A stretch of DNA of 64,000 bases, from positions 74,216,001 to 74,280,000 of the forward strand of contig NC_058368.1 in NCBI RefSeq assembly GCF_018350175.1, read 5' to 3'. Each line of letters opens with the position of its first letter. Positions within the stretch are counted from its first letter, which is position 1. This DNA is from Felis catus (lineage: Eukaryota). A model generated the notes under the pieces. That model was not told the DNA's origin. It ran no database searches and worked only from the letters and a program-made list of their open reading frames with translations. Below, in pieces: positions 5,791 to 63,814 of this stretch. The position numbers were made by a program, and so were the translations under genes.

Positions 5791-5975
5791 ATTTATTTAA
5801 ATACAGAAACAATCTTAGAAAAATAAGCGAAACAACAGGGAAAAATTAAATGAAATCAATATTTAATTGTATTATTATATCAATATTGTTATTGTATTTA
5901 AATCAATTTATTTAAATACAGAAACAATCTTAGAAAAATAAGGGAACGACAGGGAAAAATTAAGTTAAATCAATA
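5791..5975 (+). repeat. About 70-bp imperfect direct repeat with 44-bp AT-rich spacer
   Basis: atttatttaaatacagaaacaatcttagaaaaataag...aaatcaata at 5791-5861 and 5906-5975. Confidence 0.9.
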
Positions 5976-14373: not shown

Positions 14374-14596
14374 TTTTTTTTAAAATTAGTGTTTATTTAT
14401 TTTTGAGGAAGAGAGAGAGAGAGAGACAGAGTGTGAGCAGGAGAGGGGCAGAGAGAGGGAGACACAGAATCCGAAGCAGGCTCCAGGCTCTGAGCTGTCA
14501 GCACAGAGCCTGACGCTGGGCTCGAACTCATGAACCAGGAGGTCATGATCTGAGCCGAAGTCAGACGCCTAACCAACTGAGCCACCCAGGCACCCC
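14374..14596 (-). mobile_element. Can-SINE (SINEC_Fc2-like)
   Basis: Full-length; TSD tagatctta(c/t)tttc at 14360-14373 and 14597-14610. Confidence 0.97.
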
Positions 14597-25630: not shown

Positions 25631-27265
25631 AAACGTTCTGCCTCTCTTTTCTACTGTTCACTCTTTTAGGACATGATGCTCTTGGTGAACAATATTAATA
25701 TCTTAGAAGATCTCTGTCATTCCTAGGAATCTGTAGTAGTTCAGCAAAATCGACCATGGTAACAAGTTGCTTTTTTATACAATGTTGAAATAACTGAGCA
25801 TCAAAAGAAAACTATATATTTGTGCCTACACACAAGTGCGTGCATCCATATAACATATTTGATTTCCTGTTTCTCTTTGGACAATTAAGATCTCAAGGAT
25901 AAAAGAGGTATCATTCATAGTAACTTCTCTACTTGTGCTTATCACCTTCTGTTATGTATAGAATGTCCTGAATGAATTTTTTCCCATTTAATGAGACTGA
26001 TGTCATTTCTAATACCCACCACAGACAGGTGGGGTATTTAGTGGAGTAAATTCAGTCAAAGAACACATCAGATTTTATTTGGATTGGGGAAGAAAGAAGA
26101 AAATCCTAATGGCGTTCAACTTACATAAGAATAAAGCACTTTCCACAAAGATAATTTTAGTGAGCTAGTTGGCCACACGAGGTCACACACATCTGCGTGG
26201 AATACATTTGGTGGCCACTCTTAGGTCTAACAGTGTTCACGGTGGGTCCCTGTCTTGTGTCTCCCCAGGCTATACTTTGCTTCTTCGTAGTTACCGGAGG
26301 ACAGAGTTGAACACTGGAAAGAGCATTGCGTTTACAATGAATGAGATAATCACAGATTCACTTAAAATGTTATGAGGTCTTTCCTTTCTGCCTGTAATAT
26401 ATTTGAATGTTTTCTCTTAGTTTTATCGAACAGTTTGCTCTGATTTTGCAATATAGATTCCATTTTCCCTTGAGGCCACTAACAGAGAGAAATATTATGA
26501 ATTCCTTATAGTCCATTTGTCCTTTTCTTTTTAGTGCCTTAATGTATTTTTTCTGTCAATCGTGGGTTTATCTGTTTTAACAGTTAAACGTTTTCTTGTC
26601 ATTTTTCCCCAAATTTACTTGAAATATCGATGGCAATTTTCCTTAGAATATTTGCGATTTTCATTTCCTAACATATATCTAAAAGGGAGCCTTTTGAGAA
26701 ATTTGGCCATCTCTAATCTCTCAAGACAACGTTTTTCTATTTGGATTATGGATGTCAAATGTCACCGTCCTTTACTTGCATGATATATCATGCTTTGCAC
26801 AATTCATTCTCAAAATGTTCACAGTGTGATTTTCCTTAAGGCTGCTGTTGTAGTTTCCACAGATCTATTTTACACTTCAGGATGCTACATAACCTCTCCT
26901 TATCCTTAATTGGTGAAGATGCTTTGGGAACCTTGCTGGTTTCCACTTTATTAGGCAACAAAGTGAACAGAAGGGAAATCTGACCTGTGTGTCTCCTTCA
27001 GGAAAAATGACATTTTTAATACTCGGAGAAATGGATTGTTCTTCTGTATGGGCTAAATGTTCCTAGCTGGAACCAAAACACATTTCTGTCAAAATTTTCA
27101 CATATCCAAATTCCATATGTGCAAAATAAGATAGATTTGCAAAATTAAGCAATTCATCTAGAGATTTAATAATATGCAAAAGAGGGTTGTTGAAATGACC
27201 ACCTGCTCATGGACCACGCTGCCGATTATGTCTTAAACCACAGTTTTTTTTATCTCCGTATTTCT

Positions 27266-27488
27266 TTTTTTTTTTTTTTTTTTTTCAACGTTTATTTATT
27301 TTTGGGACAGAGAGAGACAGAGCATGAACGGGGGAGGGGCAGAGAGAGAGGGAGACACAGAATCGGAAACAGGCTCCAGGCTCTGAGCCATCAGCCCAGA
27401 GCCCGACGCGGGGCTCGAACTCACGGAGCGCGAGATCGTGACCTGGCTGAAGTCGGACGCCCAACCGACTGCGCCACCCAGGCGCCCC
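27266..27488 (-). mobile_element. Young felid Can-SINE (SINEC_Fc-like)
   Basis: Diagnostic gagccatcagcccagagcc and actgcgccaccc; perfect 15-bp TSD tatctccgtatttct; long pure T tail. Confidence 0.98.
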
Positions 27489-34214: not shown

Positions 34215-34673
34215 TGTATATTCCTTTCCTAGGGCTGCTGTAAAAACTACCACAAAGACTTAAAAGAACAAAAAAAATTATTCTTTCGTCACAGTTTCGG
34301 AGACCAGACGTCTGAGATCAAGGTGTTGGCAGGGCCTGGATTCTCAGGAGGTTCTGGAGGAGGATCCTTCTTGCTTCTTCCTGGTTTCTGGTGGTTGTAG
34401 GCAGCCCTTGGCCTTCTTTGGCTTGTAGACACCGCCCTGCAGTCTTTTCCTCCAAACATCTCATGGCCTCCTCCCTCTGTGTCTGTGACTCTGCATTTCT
34501 ACATGGCCTTTTAATAAATTCCCCAGTCATTGGATTTAGGACTCTGATCCAATCTGAATTTATCTTAACCAATTACATATGGAAAAAAAACTGTAGCCAA
34601 ATAAGGTCACATTCACAGGTACTGGGCGTTAGGATTTTGTGCCTTTTTGGAGGACACAATTCAACCAACGACA
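34215..34673 (-). mobile_element. MLT1B/C-like MaLR solo LTR
   Basis: tttcctagggctgctgtaa, agatcaaggtgttggcagggcc, aataaggtcacattcacaggtactggg, ggacacaattcaacc. Confidence 0.85.
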
Positions 34674-39232: not shown

Positions 39233-40512
39233 TTTTTGACTGTCATTATTTTTCTTTGTCTGTCTTTTGGATTTGTGTTATGTGTCTTATTATACTGGAC
39301 ACATTTCTATAGTCTACCTTAAAGCCTTTCTGAAATGAGGCAGAGTTTAGGTTAAATGAACAAGTAAATGGAAAGAAATACATAAAACAAGTCTGCAAGT
39401 GCATTAGATGCTACTATTGAATTTGTGTCCTTGAAAAAGCAAAGAGTTTGTTTGCATTGGCAACTGGCTCATCTTCAACAGAAAATATCACCGACTGTCA
39501 GGAGGAGAAAGGGCTAGCTTAGGGCCAGAGAGTTTTTAAATTTCTAGATGTTAAAAATAGTCAGGTTATTTAACATATTAACAGGCTTCCATTCACACTG
39601 TTTTAGTTGAGAAAGGCAATCTTCAATTCAATCAGGGATAGAAGAGTGGCTTCTTTGTAAGATCAGCTATTCCAGTCATCTAAAAGGTCAATGACATCTG
39701 ACCTTTTGCAAACCGTTTATAAAGCATGGGGGAGCATAGCATCTGTGGGCTTATCTTCCTGGTCTTTCTACAAATAAGTCATCTTATTAAGAGGCGACAA
39801 AGCAAAGAGTTTTTGTGTCAGCAAAGCAAAGATGATTGAGAACACTTCAAAAAATTAAAGTGAGTCATTTCCAATGTGATTTGAGAGGCAATCAAAACAA
39901 GGTAGAGCAAGAAACTTTACCAAACTTAAATTTTCAAACCTGTCCTATTTAGTGGTTTTCTCATTTTTTTCACCACTATGATGCAGAAAATGTTTTACCA
40001 AGTCACCATATACTCAGGGTGCTAGAGGACTGTTTAGATCACTTGAGTAATTTCAGATAGATGGTAAATCTTTATTTTGATCATAGATGTAAATATGGAT
40101 AACTTAAAAATTGCTAGTTTATAATTTTGGATTATTGTTTTAAAGACACAGATTTATGATAAAGGGGTAGAGGCCATGTAAAAATTACTTGCTTAGAAAC
40201 TTAGAGTGCAAGCATAATCAGAACGTGGTGAAAAGTTGTTAACAATCTATATTGTAACATAATTTTAGGTCTGCACAGGATAAGAGCTAAAAGGCAAAGT
40301 ATCTAGCTTTCTCGCGATACATAAGGTCATTTTATATTCTAACGGTTTGAAAATACTCTCCACTTACAGATGAACTAGTTCCTGACTTATATACGTAAAC
40401 TTTTGGCTTCAGTTTCCTCCAAATCCTGTTATCTTGAAAAAATGATCACATATTTTTGCAGTTTTCTTCTCATTGTGCATACATTCGCATTGATTAGAAG
40501 TTAAGGTTGGGC

Positions 40513-40736
40513 GGGGCGCCTGGGTGGCGCAGTCGGTTGGGCGTCCGACTTCAGCCAGGTCACGATCGCGCGGTCCGGGAGTTCGAGCCCCGCGTCAGGC
40601 TCTGGGCTGATGGCTCAGAGCTTGGAGCCTGTTTCCGATTCTGTGTCTCCCTCTCTCTCTGCCCCTCCCCCGTTCATGCTCTGTCTCTCTCTGTCCCAAA
40701 AATAAATAAACGTTGAAAAAAAATTAAAAAAAAAAA
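40513..40736 (+). mobile_element. Young felid Can-SINE (SINEC_Fc-like)
   Basis: gggtggcgcagtc, ctgggctgatggctcag; perfect 17-bp TSD agaagttaaggttgggc. Confidence 0.98.
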
Positions 40737-41384
40737 AGAAGTTAAGGTTGGGCTAGGAATTTGCAAACGCCTTAGGAATGTCCTCATTTTCAAAGATGAC
40801 TGATACAGAGTTATCTTCCCGTGGTATTATTAAAAATTTGATCTGATGATACCCTATCAACAGGTGGACAGCGCTTTCAACAAATTCTTGAAAATTCATT
40901 CTGTATAGGCTACAATAAGGTTCAAATATTGTTGACTGCTTCTGAATGCAAAACTATAAAAGTAACAGTACTGAGATATTTCTTGAGGGGTACAAAGTGA
41001 GACTGTCACCTGAGAAAGAAACCTTTATTATAACATCAACAAGAAAATGTAGTCACAGTGATAGTATTCATTAAGTAACAGCTAGCATGCATTTGCTTTT
41101 TATCCGTGAGGGGTCTTATTTTTATCATTTCAGTTTCGCATGGGTGTGTGTGTGTGTGTGTGCATGTAAAAGAAACCTTTTATTTTTGCACATCAAAGTA
41201 AATTTTATGAAAATACTACATTCTTTCTATTAGAGGAGTTACACTTAAAATGAAATTTATATAAACCCAGAGGCACACAAACGTTTTTCAGCACATGCAC
41301 AATTTAATTTTCTCAGTCGCTATGTGGTCGTGCTGTCTGTTGACGCCGTCACAGAGGGAAGAGGTGTCTCAGACGTGTAAACTG

Positions 41385-41689
41385 CGAAGGATGTATTGCT
41401 CCATCAACGCACCAGTAAGTTCTGCAGAGGCTTCCTCTGCCGATCAGAAGTAGCTAGATTTCCACACCGATTTAATCTTTGACCTTTTAACTTGGCCATT
41501 GTTTTTGGGATTCTGTGCCGTGGCACCTGTTAACTTGGAATCCCACAGAGACTGTAGGTCTCCTTTCATTGGCTGTCAATCAGACATCAGATTGTAGCAA
41601 TTTTTAGCTACCATTAACTGAGTCTGGATTCAAATTGTTGACCCATAGGTCAGAGGCCCATTACTAATCCCTGAAGCAATTCAGTCTCC
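41385..41689 (-). mobile_element. LF-SINE (LFSINE_Vert)-like ancient SINE
   Basis: Reverse strand from 41689 shows collinear blocks matching the recalled LF-SINE consensus (GGAGACTGAATTGC, GGATTAGTAATGG, GCCTCTGACCTATGGGTCA, AATCCAG, TACAATCTGATGTCTG, TTCCAAGTTAACAGGTG, GGTCAAAGATTAAAT); weaker extension toward about 41300. Confidence 0.75.
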
Positions 41690-42449
41690 TAGTTATTATG
41701 TGTCATTTAGTAGGTTTGATTCATGTGCACATCTCTTAGCAACATCAATAGAAATTCTGTGTGGGTAACAAGAGTGATGAAAGGCCCAGATTTTATTGAA
41801 ACACTACAATAGAAGAGCAGTATTAGTTTTGTGATTTCGAGGTGTGACGTCTTATTGATTATGAAGAAGGATCTGTGTACGCACAAAAACCAATGTGGCC
41901 ACAGCACTAATTGCACATGAGACAAACGCGCAGTTTTATAGGAGTATAGAACATGAGTAATTTTTCTAGCTCCCTAATGCAATCAATGTGTATACGTACG
42001 TGATCTATGCCCCTTTTAATACTCATTTTCTAGGAAAAATCTCTCTGTCTTAATAGGCTTTTTACCAAACATGATTTTTACAGGAATTGCTTTTGCAGCA
42101 AAGGTATTATTTATTCAGGTAAAATACTGCACTATATTACGAAGCTTTCAGGCAGTATTTTTGAGCAATAAGCATTAGTAGTTATATGAATAGTTTGGGG
42201 GAAATGTATTCTATTAGATTAGTTTTGTGTACAAGGAAAAAAGTCACCGAGTTTATTAAAAAGTAGAACTATAACCAGAAGCATAGGGAATAATTTGTAT
42301 TCAGGGCTATATAGCAAACAACATGAACAACCATTTTCCACTTTTGCAGAGAATATGTAGCAGAGGTTTGGTAAGAGAGAAGGAAGTTAGATCTAAGAAT
42401 ATGTTAAAGGAAGAGGGTTAAACCCCAGCTAATATGTCATGGCGATAAA

Positions 42450-42700
42450 ACTGGCTGGCATTTATTGAGGGTTTACTATGAGCTGGGTGTTACTCAAAGC
42501 ACTCAGCATGCATTAACCCACTTATGATTCCGAAAGCACAAGAAAACAGACACGAAGCAGATACGATTATTTTCCCTAATCTTAAATGAGACGCAGGTGA
42601 GGCCCAGACAAGGGCTGCTGGGGGTTATATTGCTGGTTAAGTCGTGAAGCCCAGGGTTGGATGAGGGCAGGCACCTCCCGAGCCTAACCTCCTACCCCGT
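42450..42700 (-). mobile_element. MIR
   Basis: catttattgagggtttactatg, attattttccc...aatgag...tgaggcccaga. Confidence 0.65.
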
Positions 42701-44541
42701 AAACCGCTTCAGAACGTTTCTTTTGCATTCTCCAGCCTGCAGCAAAGAGTTACCTGGAATCAGTCCCATTCTTTCTCTCAAACCGATCTCCTAATCCCCA
42801 CTTCCCTGTTTCTATCCCCAGATACTGAGGCAATTCTCCTTAGCCAGTAGGTTGGCTTCTCAGTCATGTCAGCGTTTGTCCCACTCTCCGGCCCAGCATT
42901 TTGTCATTCATAGTGTCCTGCGTCTGACACCTGCTACGTCTATTCCTTCCTTTGCTGCCTCTTGCCACCCCTCGAAGCTTGATCTTTATTATATTATCCC
43001 TGGAAGATTGCAAAATAGTCTTAGGTTATCTCCTCTCGTGACCCCAGATGACTCATCTTAAGGTTCAATTATGGTGGTGTCACTCCTCTCCTGGAAATCT
43101 CCAAGCCCTCCCCTGCTCTGCCCCCCAGTTCTCAACGGAGTAAAGAATAAACCAAGAGCTTCTCCTGAAATGCAGCGTTCTCTGTGATCTTCTCTCTGGT
43201 CTTCTACATTGTGATGTGCGTTTTTAATCAAACTGGATAATTTATACTTTTAGAGCGTGCCTTTCCAATCTCAGTGATCGTGGGCGACATTTTGTTCTTT
43301 GACCTTCCGACGTTTAGTGTTTATAATCCTCTTACACTATTATCTACTCTTTTCTCATTGTCTGTGGTCCTTTAATAGAACCATGAACAATAGGAAGGCG
43401 TTTATGGATTATTAAGCATTTTTTTTCCTCAGAGTAACCGTGCCCTTAGCTAAAATTTCAGATTCTGTGCACTACCCAACATCTACTAAATGAGAATGTC
43501 TGTCATCTACTACGCACCTACCCCAGCATCTATCCCCATTGGACCAAATGGGGTGCCCGCCTCTTAATTCACAAAGGACAGCAACAACAGTCCTGACTCC
43601 TCACCATTTTGTTTGAGACTTGTTCAGCCATCTTCACCACCCTTTGATTCTAAATGTGGTTCACTGATTTAATCACGTGTGTAACAGGATGAGTAATAAA
43701 ACCAGACGGGCCATGTTTCCACGATGTTCTTTAATTTACTGCATGACATATCACAGACCATTTAATGGGCTTCCTATTTGATGAGTGTAGTTAATGAGTC
43801 ACATTTTACTTCCTTACAAACCCCATCCCCAATGTCTTTATTACTGAAAACACACTTAGAGTCCAGACAAAAAAGTGGACCCAGAAAAGGCATCCTCTTT
43901 CCATTAAAGCCCAAGGAGAGCATTCAATCCATGATTAAGATTTCATATTTAACTTCCCATTCTCAAACCCACAGTCATGATGTTTCTTGTGATTTCTATG
44001 CACAAAGGTGTCCATGAGACATAGGGTTCTTAGGACTCTTACTTTGGGATTCTTCAAGATATTAAGATACTAAGTTCTAATTAAGCAAAGTTCTAATTTA
44101 GCAAAGATATTTATGTAGCATGACTTGTGGGGGGCCCACGTCTTGGACTCTCATCAATGCCAAGACAAGGTGTTTGCCTAACAGTTTCCTGATCCAAAGA
44201 AAGAACCATTGTCCAATTATGTAAGTGGTTGACATCCGACAACTCTTGGTGAAGCTCACTTGGTTCTTTTCGTCTCTTGAGAAAGGGGACGGAAATCTCT
44301 TTATCTACTTAGACCATCCAACAAAACCTCATGTGCTGCGCTCTTCCTCCTTAAGCAAACAGACAATGAGGACCGGGTTAGTATCTCTGTTGCAGAAAGG
44401 ATGGGAGGTACAGTATGGGTAGTTGAGTGGTTCCAACAGCAGCTACAATCCTGACATATATAATTTTCTCTTTAATGCAATTCATCACATATTATTATTT
44501 TGGAAAAAAAATTGTTTGCTGGATGTGTACAACAGAAATAT

Positions 44542-56120: not shown

Positions 56121-56327
56121 TTATTTTTTCAAAAAAATTTTTTTTAATGCTTACTCATTTTTTGAGAGACAGAGCATGATAGGGAGGCACAGAATCTGAA
56201 GCAGGCTCCAGGCTCTGAACTGAGAGCACAGAACCCGACACGGGGCTCGAACTCACAAACCATGAGATCATGACCTGAGCTGAAGTCAGACGCTTAACCA
56301 ACTAAGCCACCCAGGCTCAGGGACTCC
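56121..56327 (-). mobile_element. Can-SINE
   Basis: Shortened CT tract; TSD aagtcct(g/a)tgaatttt. Confidence 0.93.
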
Positions 56328-56695: not shown

Positions 56696-56929
56696 TTTTT
56701 TATTTTTATTTTTATTTTTTGTAACATTTATTTATTTTTGAGACAGAGAGAGAGAGAGAGAGCATGAACAGGGGAGGGTCAGAGAAAGAGGGAGACACAG
56801 AATCCGAAACAGGCTCCAGGCTCTGAGCTGTCAGCACAGAGCCCGACGCGGGGCTAGAACTCACGGACTGCGAGATCGTGACCTGAGCCGAAGTCGGACG
56901 CTTAACCAACTGAGCCACCCAGGCGCTCC
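56696..56929 (-). mobile_element. Can-SINE (SINEC_Fc2-like)
   Basis: Full-length; TSD ttgatt(t/c)cggt. Confidence 0.96.
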
Positions 56930-60539: not shown

Positions 60540-60869
60540 AAAAGAAGGTCTTTACATAATGACGCAAGAGTCAGTTCATTCAGAAAACAAAACCATTATG
60601 AATGAAGATTTGTCTAACAATGAGCCTCAGAGCATCCAAAAATGCTAAAATTGAAGGGTGAAATCCTAAGTCCACAATCATAGTAGGTTTGAACATTTCT
60701 CTCTAGCAGTTGATAAAACACCTAGAAAAAAAAACCTATAAAAATATAGAAGACTTAATTGATATTTATAGAACTCTGTCCACAACAACTACAAAATAAA
60801 CATTCTTTTCAAGTACACATTGTCTTATTCACCAAGGTAGACTCTGTATTGGGCCACTATGCAAGTCTC
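60540..60869 (+). mobile_element. L1 endonuclease-region fragment in opposite orientation to its host L1
   Basis: ccacaatcatagtagg, gatatttatagaactct, cattcttttcaagtacacat, attcaccaaggtagac. Confidence 0.75.
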
Positions 60870-61623
60870 GCTTTTTTCTGTCTGACGTCAATTCTAATGA
60901 GAATTCCAGAGGTAATCCCATGATTTGTCCCTTGTACGTAAGGTATTGGTTTTGTTTGGCTGCTTTCAAAATATTTTCTTTAGTTTTGCTTTTCAGAAAT
61001 TTGACTGAGATGTATTTAGGTGTGGTTGTCTTCCCATTTATGTTTGGGTTTCAGGGAGCTTCTTAAAGGTAATAAATATATGTCTGATTCTCCATGTTGA
61101 AAGTTATTATCTCTTTCCAAGGAATCTTTGCTGACCTATACTCTTTCTTTTCCTTTTGAGTTAGCAATTACCCATAATGTAGATCTGTTGACATTGCCAG
61201 TGGTGTCTTTGTGGCCCTGATTATTTTATTCCATTTCTTTTCTTTTTCAATTTTGATCATTTATATTGATCTAACTTCAAGGTCACTCTTTCCTCCATCA
61301 TGCCCATCAGATTATTAATGATTCTGTGAGTTTTATATTTTACGGTTTTTCTATATATTTCAGCTGATACTATCTCCAGCACCAGATACAAGGATTGGGG
61401 GCACATGAGTCAGGCTGAGCCCATCAGTGCAGTCACCTTCCATCCCCTTCCCTGGACCCAATGATTAGTTTAGAAAAGGCTGCATGAGGTAAATCAGATG
61501 GTTCAGTGACCACGAACCTTACTTTCTGGAATTTACATTGAGTTCTCTGATATAAGGACACTCTCTACTTGTGACCTCAGAGTTGTACTTATTTGATCTG
61601 AAACTTTAAAAGTAGTGTTCCTC

Positions 61624-63589: not shown

Positions 63590-63814
63590 GGGACGCCTGG
63601 ATGGTTCAGTCGGTTGAGCGTCTGACTTCAGCTCGGGTCATGACCTCGCGGTTCGTGAGTTCGAGCCCCTCTTCGGGCTCTTTGCTAACAGCTCGGAGCC
63701 TGGAGCCTGCTTGGGATTCTGTGTCTCCCTCTCTCTCTGCCCCTCCCTCGCTCACATTCTGTCTCTCTCTCCTTCAAAAATAAATAAACATTAAAAAAAA
63801 TTAAAAAAAAAAAA
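63590..63814 (+). mobile_element. Can-SINE
   Basis: gggacgcctggatggttcag head; TSD agaaatgtattgga(g/t)a. Confidence 0.96.

What the first reader, a model, noticed from the sequence alone, without database searches (positions are those of the whole stretch)
41300..41689. Apparent LF-SINE: an ancient SINE still recognisable, a candidate exapted element
Seen: the minus strand from 41689 reads GGAGACTGAATTGCTTCAGGGATTAGTAATGGGCCTCTGACCTATGGGTCAACAATTTGAATCCAG...TACAATCTGATGTCTG...TTCCAAGTTAACAGGTGCCAC...GGTCAAAGATTAAAT. This is collinear with the LF-SINE consensus as I recall it (GGGGACTGGATGGCTCAG..GGATTGGTAATGG..GCCTTTCACCTCTAGGTCA..AAATCCAG..TACCATCTGATGGCTG..TTCCTAGTGGACAGGTG..GGCCAAGGATTGAAT). 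Established: LF-SINE was active in early lobe-finned fish and tetrapods, survives in low copy number in mammals, and has been exapted as an ISL1 enhancer and a PCBP2 exon. Inference: persistence of about 300 bp suggests purifying selection, probably as a distal enhancer. This is the best functional candidate in the window.
Basis: partly seen in the sequence, partly recalled or inferred. Interest (0 to 1): 0.75.

Follow-up and report, generated by a model that had tools for sequence, protein, structure and literature searches.

The report
Ancient SINE relic with conserved core
A roughly 390-base stretch of non-coding DNA in a cat-family genome looks like a relic of a very old vertebrate jumping element, and its central 216 bases have changed about five times more slowly than the neighbouring DNA, as expected for a gene switch of an already well-known kind whose activity is not yet shown.

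Summary
The quoted letters are at 41689→41470 (minus strand), single-copy, in exon-free DNA of a felid. LF-SINE identity is likely (~0.88) but rests on recall: no tool held an LF-SINE consensus. It is not the young carnivore SINE that fills the window, and no tRNA-type head is detectable. New evidence: spurious gene calls on contigs of other, unnamed mammals cover the orthologous locus. Against one lineage, 4 of 72 codon positions differ in a core (41427-41642) versus 30 of 123 in the flanks (Fisher p=4e-4; scan-corrected p=0.005). The head and the 3' third drift at flank rate. So constraint covers about 216 bases, not the whole element, and is shown only over a modest distance. The core holds the window's only PBX-PREP/MEIS decamer, plus SOX, NR4A and E-box sites. 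Earlier scan notes place the window roughly in the SLC10A2-EFNB2 gene desert, a conserved domain with distal efnb2 enhancers. Best reading: an exapted distal enhancer module (0.55); EFNB2 as target is inferred only. No activity data. A new member of a known kind.

The parts
41300..41689 (-). Candidate near-full-length LF-SINE relic, single copy in the window; the 3' end (about 41285-41300) is uncertain
   Evidence: Sequence seen; single copy; not the young carnivore SINE; family name from recall only
41644..41689 (-). 5' head, tRNA-derived by recall; Pol III boxes decayed; not constrained
   Evidence: Best A/B pair 5 mismatches; no Rfam tRNA hit; 4 of 15 codon positions differ from lineage X
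41427..41642 (.). Constrained core of 216 bases
   Evidence: 4 of 72 codon positions differ from lineage X, d about 0.03 versus 0.14 in flanks; no indel; 5-6 of 56 differ from lineage Y; 1 of 53 from a close relative
41573..41582 (-). Exact PBX-PREP/MEIS decamer (DECA motif, TGATTGACAG)
   Evidence: Only match to TGANTGACAG in 64 kb, 0.73 expected; motif as given in PMC6023610; codons over it unchanged in X and Y, which fixes only 3 of its 10 bases
41566..41574 (-). CCAAT box directly abutting the decamer (0-base spacing, not the canonical 11)
   Evidence: canonical spacing 11 bp, 8 bp already incompatible in models (10.64898/2026.02.16.706105)
41524..41529 (-). E-box of the ZEB/SNAI/E2A type (motif match only)
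   Evidence: codons unchanged in X and Y
41497..41503 (-). SOX-type site (motif match only)
   Evidence: codons unchanged in X and Y
41480..41487 (-). NR4A (NBRE)-type nuclear-receptor site, one of 3 in the window (motif match only)
   Evidence: codons unchanged in X and Y
41300..41426 (-). 3' third of the relic: CpG-rich, drifting at flank rate; by recall the part that gives the PCBP2-type exons in other copies
   Evidence: 11 of 42 codon positions differ from X, 8 of 17 from Y with a frameshift; 9 CpG in 41290-41480

Best explanation
An LF-SINE copy inserted in a lobe-finned or early tetrapod ancestor, lost its Pol III promoter and mobility, and its central ~216 bases were kept by purifying selection as a DNA-level cis-regulatory module. 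It most likely works as a distal developmental enhancer: a PBX-PREP/MEIS dimer binds the perfect decamer and opens or primes the site, and tissue-restricted factors (SOX, NR4A-type receptor, E-box binder) supply specificity. The most likely target is EFNB2, across the SLC10A2-EFNB2 gene desert. Shown: the sequence, single copy, non-coding setting, slow change of the core, presence of the motifs. Recalled: LF-SINE identity. Inferred: age, binding, enhancer activity, position in the desert, target (EFNB2 about 0.3 overall).
For: Core versus flanks against lineage X: 4 of 72 versus 30 of 123 codon positions differ, Fisher p=4.2e-4; likelihood ratio p=3e-4; 99 of 20,000 permutations of all 254 aligned codons give as good a 72-codon stretch. 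Without CpG-touching codons: 4 of 66 versus 29 of 121, p=0.0012. Lineage Y: 6 of 56 in the core versus 8 of 17 next to it, p=0.0024. No coding signal: 4-10 stops in each of six frames, frameshifts against both lineages at the element's ends. Only decamer in the window lies in the core. The core holds 8 of 24 panel motifs, mean 3.2, matched by 0.18% of 216-base windows (panel written after seeing the core, two pairs nested). Family precedent: over 200 conserved non-coding human copies and the Isl1 enhancer (PMC3649676); enrichment in DNase peaks (PMC6904449) and Lhx2 peaks (PMC10257727). The EFNB2-SLC10A2 interval is one conserved TAD with a distal efnb2 enhancer cluster (10.64898/2026.03.30.715377).
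Against: Family identity was not tested by any tool; tRNA head and TSD tests were negative. The orthologues are unnamed, seen only as amino acids, and amount to two outgroup lineages. X was found with the core as query, and the element outside that query is not slower than the flanks (18 of 82, p=0.41; core outside the query 3 of 25, p=0.14). The right flank is also slow (5 of 35), so the constrained block may not follow the SINE's ends. None of the 9 changed core codons falls on the five motifs, but that is expected about 1 time in 10 (15 of 72 codons; reckoned by hand). The CCAAT box abuts the decamer, a spacing at which TALE and NF-Y cannot bind together. Only 1 of 7 DECA/NF-Y elements drove a reporter in cells (PMC6023610). 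No chromatin, binding or reporter data. The position rests on unchecked AI notes and recalled human coordinates.
Confidence: 0.55

Rival explanations
1. It is an LF-SINE relic under little or no present selection. The slow core is a local mutational cold spot, an ascertainment effect or a small-sample fluctuation.
For: X was found with the core as query; the element outside the query equals the flanks. Only two outgroup lineages. Most ancestral TEs are neutral, and faint LF-SINE relics may be very numerous.
Against: The chance of at most 1 change in 47 codons at flank rate is 3e-5. The scan-corrected p is 0.005. The effect survives removal of CpG codons. A hit at 91% identity still scored E 7e-22, so the search did not need 98% identity (inference, not simulated).
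Confidence: 0.15
2. The core is kept for an RNA-level role: a structured stretch or exon of an unannotated long non-coding RNA in the SINE-sense direction.
For: The core folds at z=-2.64 on the minus strand, with 0 of 200 shuffles as stable. Only 3 of 130 random non-SINE 216-mers of the window fold as well.
Against: Two strands and a boundary chosen afterwards were tried; plus strand z=-1.86, whole element z=-1.80. Five of 9 changed codons hit paired positions, as expected from 56% paired. No Rfam family. Splice-site look-alikes are no better than hundreds elsewhere in the window.
Confidence: 0.12
3. It is a constrained non-coding element, but of another origin (another ancient SINE, an unclassified repeat or unique DNA). 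The LF-SINE label is a mistaken recall.
For: No tool held the consensus; no paralogue turned up in any collection; tRNA head and TSD not detected.
Against: Seven blocks match in order at 89 of 106 positions, and my own recall of the family agrees with them (recall, not a test). Loss of promoter boxes and TSD is expected at this age. The collections searched hold almost no vertebrate DNA.
Confidence: 0.1
4. It is an exonised LF-SINE, a coding or poison cassette exon antisense to the SINE, as in PCBP2.
For: LF-SINEs gave 19 exons in tetrapods (PMC9148063). Weak acceptor look-alikes at 41317 and 41355 and a donor look-alike at 41415 lie on the plus strand.
Against: That stretch is the unconstrained third and has a frameshift against lineage Y at 41413. 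No Pfam family reaches its cut-off in 143 stop-free stretches of the window except an L1 ORF1 scrap. The frame has no meaningful PDB relative. No host gene is evident.
Confidence: 0.03

Closest known systems
LF-SINE / LFSINE_Vert (Bejerano et al. 2006; paper not held; seen through passages of PMC3649676, PMC9148063, PMC2315648, PMC5753468)
   Same: By recall: collinear blocks over the 5' half, near full length, single low-copy relic in a mammal. From papers: a tRNA-class SINE in Repbase, about 1e5 copies in coelacanth, over 200 conserved non-coding copies in human.
   Different: No profile test was possible. Unlike the ultraconserved copies, this one is constrained only in its middle, and its depth beyond a carnivore-scale distance is unknown.
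ISL1-proximal LF-SINE enhancer
   Same: Non-coding, constrained LF-SINE copy in gene-poor DNA near a developmental gene.
   Different: That copy is conserved to chicken and frog and was shown by mouse transgenesis. Here there is no activity test, and the inferred target is about 2.5-3 Mb away (recalled coordinates).
PCBP2 and other LF-SINE-derived exons
   Same: Same family by recall; weak splice look-alikes antisense to the SINE.
   Different: The part that, by recall, forms those exons is the unconstrained third here, with a frameshift between lineages and no host gene.
DECA and DECA-CCAAT elements bound by PBX/PREP and NF-Y (PMC6023610; 10.64898/2026.02.16.706105)
   Same: Exact decamer with a CCAAT box beside it.
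   Different: Spacing is 0 rather than 10-12 bp, so it is not the cooperative composite element.
Distal efnb2 enhancer cluster in the EFNB2-SLC10A2 TAD (10.64898/2026.03.30.715377)
   Same: Probably the same gene desert: estimate about chr13:103.6 ± 0.5 Mb in human terms, cluster at 103.89-104.08 Mb.
   Different: The cluster was found in teleosts; an LF-SINE is lobe-fin-specific, so it would be a later addition. Overlap with the cluster is not shown.

Membership tests
LF-SINE (LFSINE_Vert) | Significant collinear match to the family consensus or profile | not testable with these tools
LF-SINE (LFSINE_Vert) | Homologous copies elsewhere (coelacanth, turtle, bird or paralogous mammalian loci) | tested here: inconclusive
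   None found, but these collections are almost all microbial
LF-SINE (LFSINE_Vert) | tRNA-derived head with Pol III A and B boxes | tested here: inconclusive
   Not detected. Power is low: Rfam also missed the young SINE head at 40513, and decay is expected
LF-SINE (LFSINE_Vert) | Insertion hallmarks (target-site duplication, tail) | tested here: inconclusive
   No TSD; expected to be lost at this age
LF-SINE (LFSINE_Vert) | Insertion older than the mammalian radiation (orthologue in marsupial, bird or amphibian) | not testable with these tools
   Orthologues seen only in unnamed mammals at about 0.14-0.17 substitutions per site in the flanks
Young carnivore tRNA-SINE (SINEC/Can-SINE; name recalled) | Match to the profile of the window's own copies | tested here: not met
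   Profile of 25 copies gives no hit on the element; blastn finds none
Exapted conserved non-exonic element | Substitution rate below neighbouring neutral DNA | tested here: met
   Core 4 of 72 versus flanks 30 of 123, p=4e-4; scan-corrected p=0.005; met for 41427-41642 only, through an amino-acid proxy
Exapted conserved non-exonic element | Not protein-coding | tested here: met
   Stops in all six frames; frameshifts between lineages; no Pfam or PDB relative
Exapted conserved non-exonic element | Absent from mature transcripts | not tested
   No RNA reads were laid on it
Developmental enhancer | Open chromatin, H3K27ac, factor binding or reporter activity | not testable with these tools
   Motif matches only
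DECA-CCAAT composite element | Decamer and CCAAT 10-12 bp apart | tested here: not met
   They abut; canonical spacing 11 bp

The most novel reading that the evidence does not exclude
A lobe-fin-specific SINE landed in the ancient EFNB2 gene desert, gained a perfect PBX-PREP/MEIS decamer after insertion (by recall the consensus lacks it), and became a tetrapod or amniote addition to a regulatory domain that predates it. It would act on EFNB2 from more than 2 Mb away, for example in dorsal retina or forebrain, with TALE and NF-Y competing for abutting sites.
Probability: 0.15. Interest if true: 0.55.

Novelty: new member of a known kind. Interest (0 to 1): 0.3.

Why it matters
LF-SINE exaptation as enhancer or exon has been known since 2006, and hundreds of constrained copies exist, so one more is not surprising; it is probably already in repeat annotations of cat and human (inference). 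What makes this copy useful is that it is easy to test: a bounded 216-base core, one exact TALE site to mutate, and a plausible target domain with known long-range enhancers. If the EFNB2 link held, it would be a rare worked case of a dated transposon adding a module to a regulatory domain older than itself. The only functionally tested LF-SINE enhancer in the passages I read is the ISL1 one.

Tried and rejected
Whole genome: none held. Sequencing runs for 41170-44500 with the library word ATAC: none was listed, no RNA holder listed; this is no evidence either way, and no reads were laid. LF-SINE sequence from papers: a motif search listed 3 unrelated papers; the 5 supplements of PMC4255032 hold no such letters; supplements of PMC3531059 and PMC3428314 could not be read and might hold the consensus or human coordinates; Bejerano 2006 is not held; bioRxiv supplements are closed. 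Gapped-motif scans: metagenomes gave 2 loci, both chance; viral contigs 0. P0003 against genome and viral contigs: 39 and 8 pattern matches, none confirmed. P0004 and P0005 (2 of the 4 hits) were rejected as repeat-summed artefacts: a coral discoidin-repeat protein and a tandem-repeat ORF. Four ARAGORN tRNA calls are heads of young SINEs: three regions read hold all four. Exon hunt: 143 stop-free stretches of at least 70 aa gave one hit at cut-off, an L1 ORF1 scrap; shorter exons were not screened. PDB search with the 62-aa plus frame: one hit at E 0.44. Rfam: nothing near a gathering score. Earlier scan notes: none like this sequence, none near, none under LF-SINE words; gene-word look-ups gave no closer anchor. 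Left out of the divergence counts: 13 codons over the TG repeat (41132-41169); everything left of 40991, where the alignment has many indels; P0006 and P0008, which repeat lineage X. The DECA-CCAAT composite reading was rejected on spacing. A search for LF-SINE or LFSINE together with EFNB2, PBX1 or PKNOX1 showed no such pairing among the 40 listed of 206 papers; this is all I can say about print, and most subscription papers are not searched.

Full report
Setting. The window is AT-rich non-coding DNA (GC 33-43%) from a cat-family carnivore. It holds 25 copies of a young tRNA-derived SINE, whose heads explain the four ARAGORN calls; the family name SINEC/Can-SINE is recalled, and earlier scan notes call the genome cat-family. 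Of 143 stop-free stretches of at least 70 codons, one reaches a Pfam cut-off, an L1 ORF1 scrap at 60832-61050. Shorter exons were not screened. No whole genome is held.

Observation. The quoted letters stand on the minus strand from 41689 to 41470. By eye, the seven consensus blocks quoted in the finding match in order at 89 of 106 positions with one gap. My own recall of the family agrees with them and extends the match more weakly to about 41295, which would make the copy nearly full length. That is a lead, not a test. Rfam gives nothing. The best A/B-box pair has 5 mismatches in 22 positions; 413 places in the window do better and 683 as well. There is no target-site duplication. These negatives have little power at the age claimed. 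No tool gave an LF-SINE consensus or second copy. I put the family assignment at about 0.88.

Conservation. The protein collections hold spurious gene calls on contigs of other mammals, and some cover this locus. A 47-codon frame of the element (41454-41594) found P0001 (91% identical) and P0003 (98%). P0003 found P0006 and its cluster, and a minus frame found P0009. P0003 is 245 residues, read with TAG as Gln, and spans 41062-41796 with both flanks, so it is the orthologue. P0007 is identical to it where they overlap and extends it to 40991; together they are lineage X. Differing codon positions against X: core 41427-41642, 4 of 72 (d 0.028, 95% range 0.009-0.065; K80 model, kappa 4 assumed); 3' third 41300-41426, 11 of 42 (0.152); head 41644-41689, 4 of 15; left flank 25 of 88 (0.168) with 4 indels; right flank 5 of 35 (0.072); both flanks 30 of 123 (0.139). 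Core versus flanks gives Fisher p=4.2e-4. Since the core's ends were chosen after the fact, I permuted all 254 codons: 99 of 20,000 permutations gave as good a 72-codon stretch. Removing CpG-touching codons leaves 4 of 66 versus 29 of 121, p=0.0012. A second lineage (P0001/P0002) differs at 5-6 of 56 core codons and at 8 of 17 just 3' of it, with a frameshift (p=0.0024). P0009, a close relative read with TGA as Trp, differs at 5 of 123, 4 of them in the 3' third.

Limits of that test. X was found with part of the core as query. Outside the query the element is not slower than the flanks (18 of 82, p=0.41), and the core outside it only weakly so (3 of 25, p=0.14). Against a pure ascertainment effect, at most 1 change in 47 codons has probability 3e-5 at flank rate, and a 91% hit still scored E 7e-22. 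A flank distance of 0.14-0.17 is, by recall, about that of cat to another carnivore family. Conservation to marsupials or birds is untested.

How it may work. The core is not coding: each of six frames has 4-10 stops, frameshifts separate the lineages at 41284, 41413 and 41643, and PDB has no relative of the longest frame. It holds the window's only match to TGANTGACAG, an exact PBX-PREP decamer (motif in PMC6023610, passages), with SOX, NR4A-type, E-box and CCAAT matches. The core has 8 of 24 panel motifs against a mean of 3.2, and 0.18% of 216-base windows have as many; the panel was written after I had seen the core and has two nested pairs, so this figure is optimistic. Codons over all five motifs are unchanged in both lineages, but they fix only 3-4 bases of each, and 0 of 9 changes in 15 of 72 codons would happen about 1 time in 10 (reckoned by hand). 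The CCAAT box abuts the decamer, whereas the cooperative element needs about 11 bp and 8 bp already clashes in models (10.64898/2026.02.16.706105, passages). So this is not a DECA-CCAAT composite. DECA elements alone were mostly inactive in reporters (1 of 7) and are proposed to prime nearby tissue-specific input. My best model is TALE priming plus tissue-restricted factors in one short module.

RNA rival. The minus-strand core folds at z=-2.64 (0 of 200 shuffles), and 3 of 130 random non-SINE 216-mers fold as well. The plus strand gives -1.86 and the whole element -1.80. Five of the 9 changed codons hit paired positions, as expected from 56% paired. This is weak, and SINEs begin as structured RNAs.

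Position and target. Unchecked notes of this scan put a GPC6 intron 8.61 Mb before the window, a MYO16 intron 4.73 Mb after it and SUGT1 44.61 Mb before it. With recalled human gene positions this scales to about chr13:103.6 ± 0.5 Mb, inside the desert between SLC10A2 and EFNB2, which is conserved in mouse, chicken and lizard (PMC5288522, passages). A 2026 preprint reports that interval as one conserved TAD, with a distal cluster that loops to efnb2a in fish and drives dorsal-retina expression, its human orthologue at chr13:103,888,078-104,080,831 (10.64898/2026.03.30.715377, passages; supplements closed). EFNB2 is therefore the natural candidate, at about 0.3 overall.

Comparison with what is known. 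LF-SINE has about 1e5 copies in coelacanth (PMC2315648, passages; PMC4255032, passages and supplements), is listed as a tRNA-class SINE in Repbase (PMC5753468, passages), and has over 200 conserved non-coding human copies, the Isl1 enhancer (PMC3649676, passages) and 19 tetrapod exons (PMC9148063, passages). It is enriched in DNase peaks (PMC6904449, passage) and Lhx2 peaks (PMC10257727, passages and supplement rows). Mouse annotation holds 122,727 bases of it in 2.65 Gb, about 3 bases per 64-kb window, so a genome scan will meet copies regularly. Faint relics may be 100 times more numerous (10.1101/2025.03.14.643233, passages). Over 280,000 TE-derived conserved elements are known (PMC3428314, passages). 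Bejerano 2006 itself was not held; SINEBase (PMC3531059) gave only its header. It works like the ISL1-type exapted enhancers; membership of the family is probable but untested.

Verdict. Enhancer activity and target are inferred. A new member of a known kind; interest 0.3.

Noticed in passing
window 39682-39707: A perfect inverted pair of NR4A-type nuclear-receptor sites with an 8-base spacer (seen); by count these are 2 of the window's 3 such sites, 1.8 kb from the core. An AP-1-like site and a 22-base near-repeat (39433/39796) lie close by. Possibly a second regulatory module.
   Followed up: no
window 41690-41796: The flank just 5' of the SINE head is also slow against lineage X (5 of 35 codons; 1-2 of 20 in sliding windows), so constraint may extend beyond the SINE.
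   Followed up: partly
window 41290-41480: Nine CpGs (observed/expected 0.85) in the drifting 3' third, against 1 in 41480-41689. Unexplained; could reflect low germline methylation.
   Followed up: partly
window 40496-40753: A very young felid SINE (40513-40740) with a perfect 17-base target-site duplication, 97% identical to the copy at 27262-27488.
   Followed up: no
window 14506-14591, 56231-56316, 56839-56924, 63595-63680: ARAGORN tRNA-Arg and tRNA-SeC calls are heads of young SINE copies, not tRNA genes.
   Followed up: yes
window 60832-61050 (-): Fragment of L1 ORF1 (Pfam Transposase_22 at its cut-off).
   Followed up: no
window 42440-43250: MIR-like then L2-like decayed repeats, by eye and recall only; they would serve as neutral controls in a nucleotide alignment.
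   Followed up: no
window 5791-5975 and 463-703 / 34219-34453: A 71-base local duplication (93%) and a pair of older repeat copies (68%) unrelated to the young SINE.
   Followed up: no
P0003, P0009, P0001, P0006: The protein collections hold spurious ORFs called on mammalian non-coding contigs, some under alternative codes (TAG as Gln, TGA as Trp). They are not genes, but they serve as a rough proxy for orthologous DNA.
   Followed up: yes
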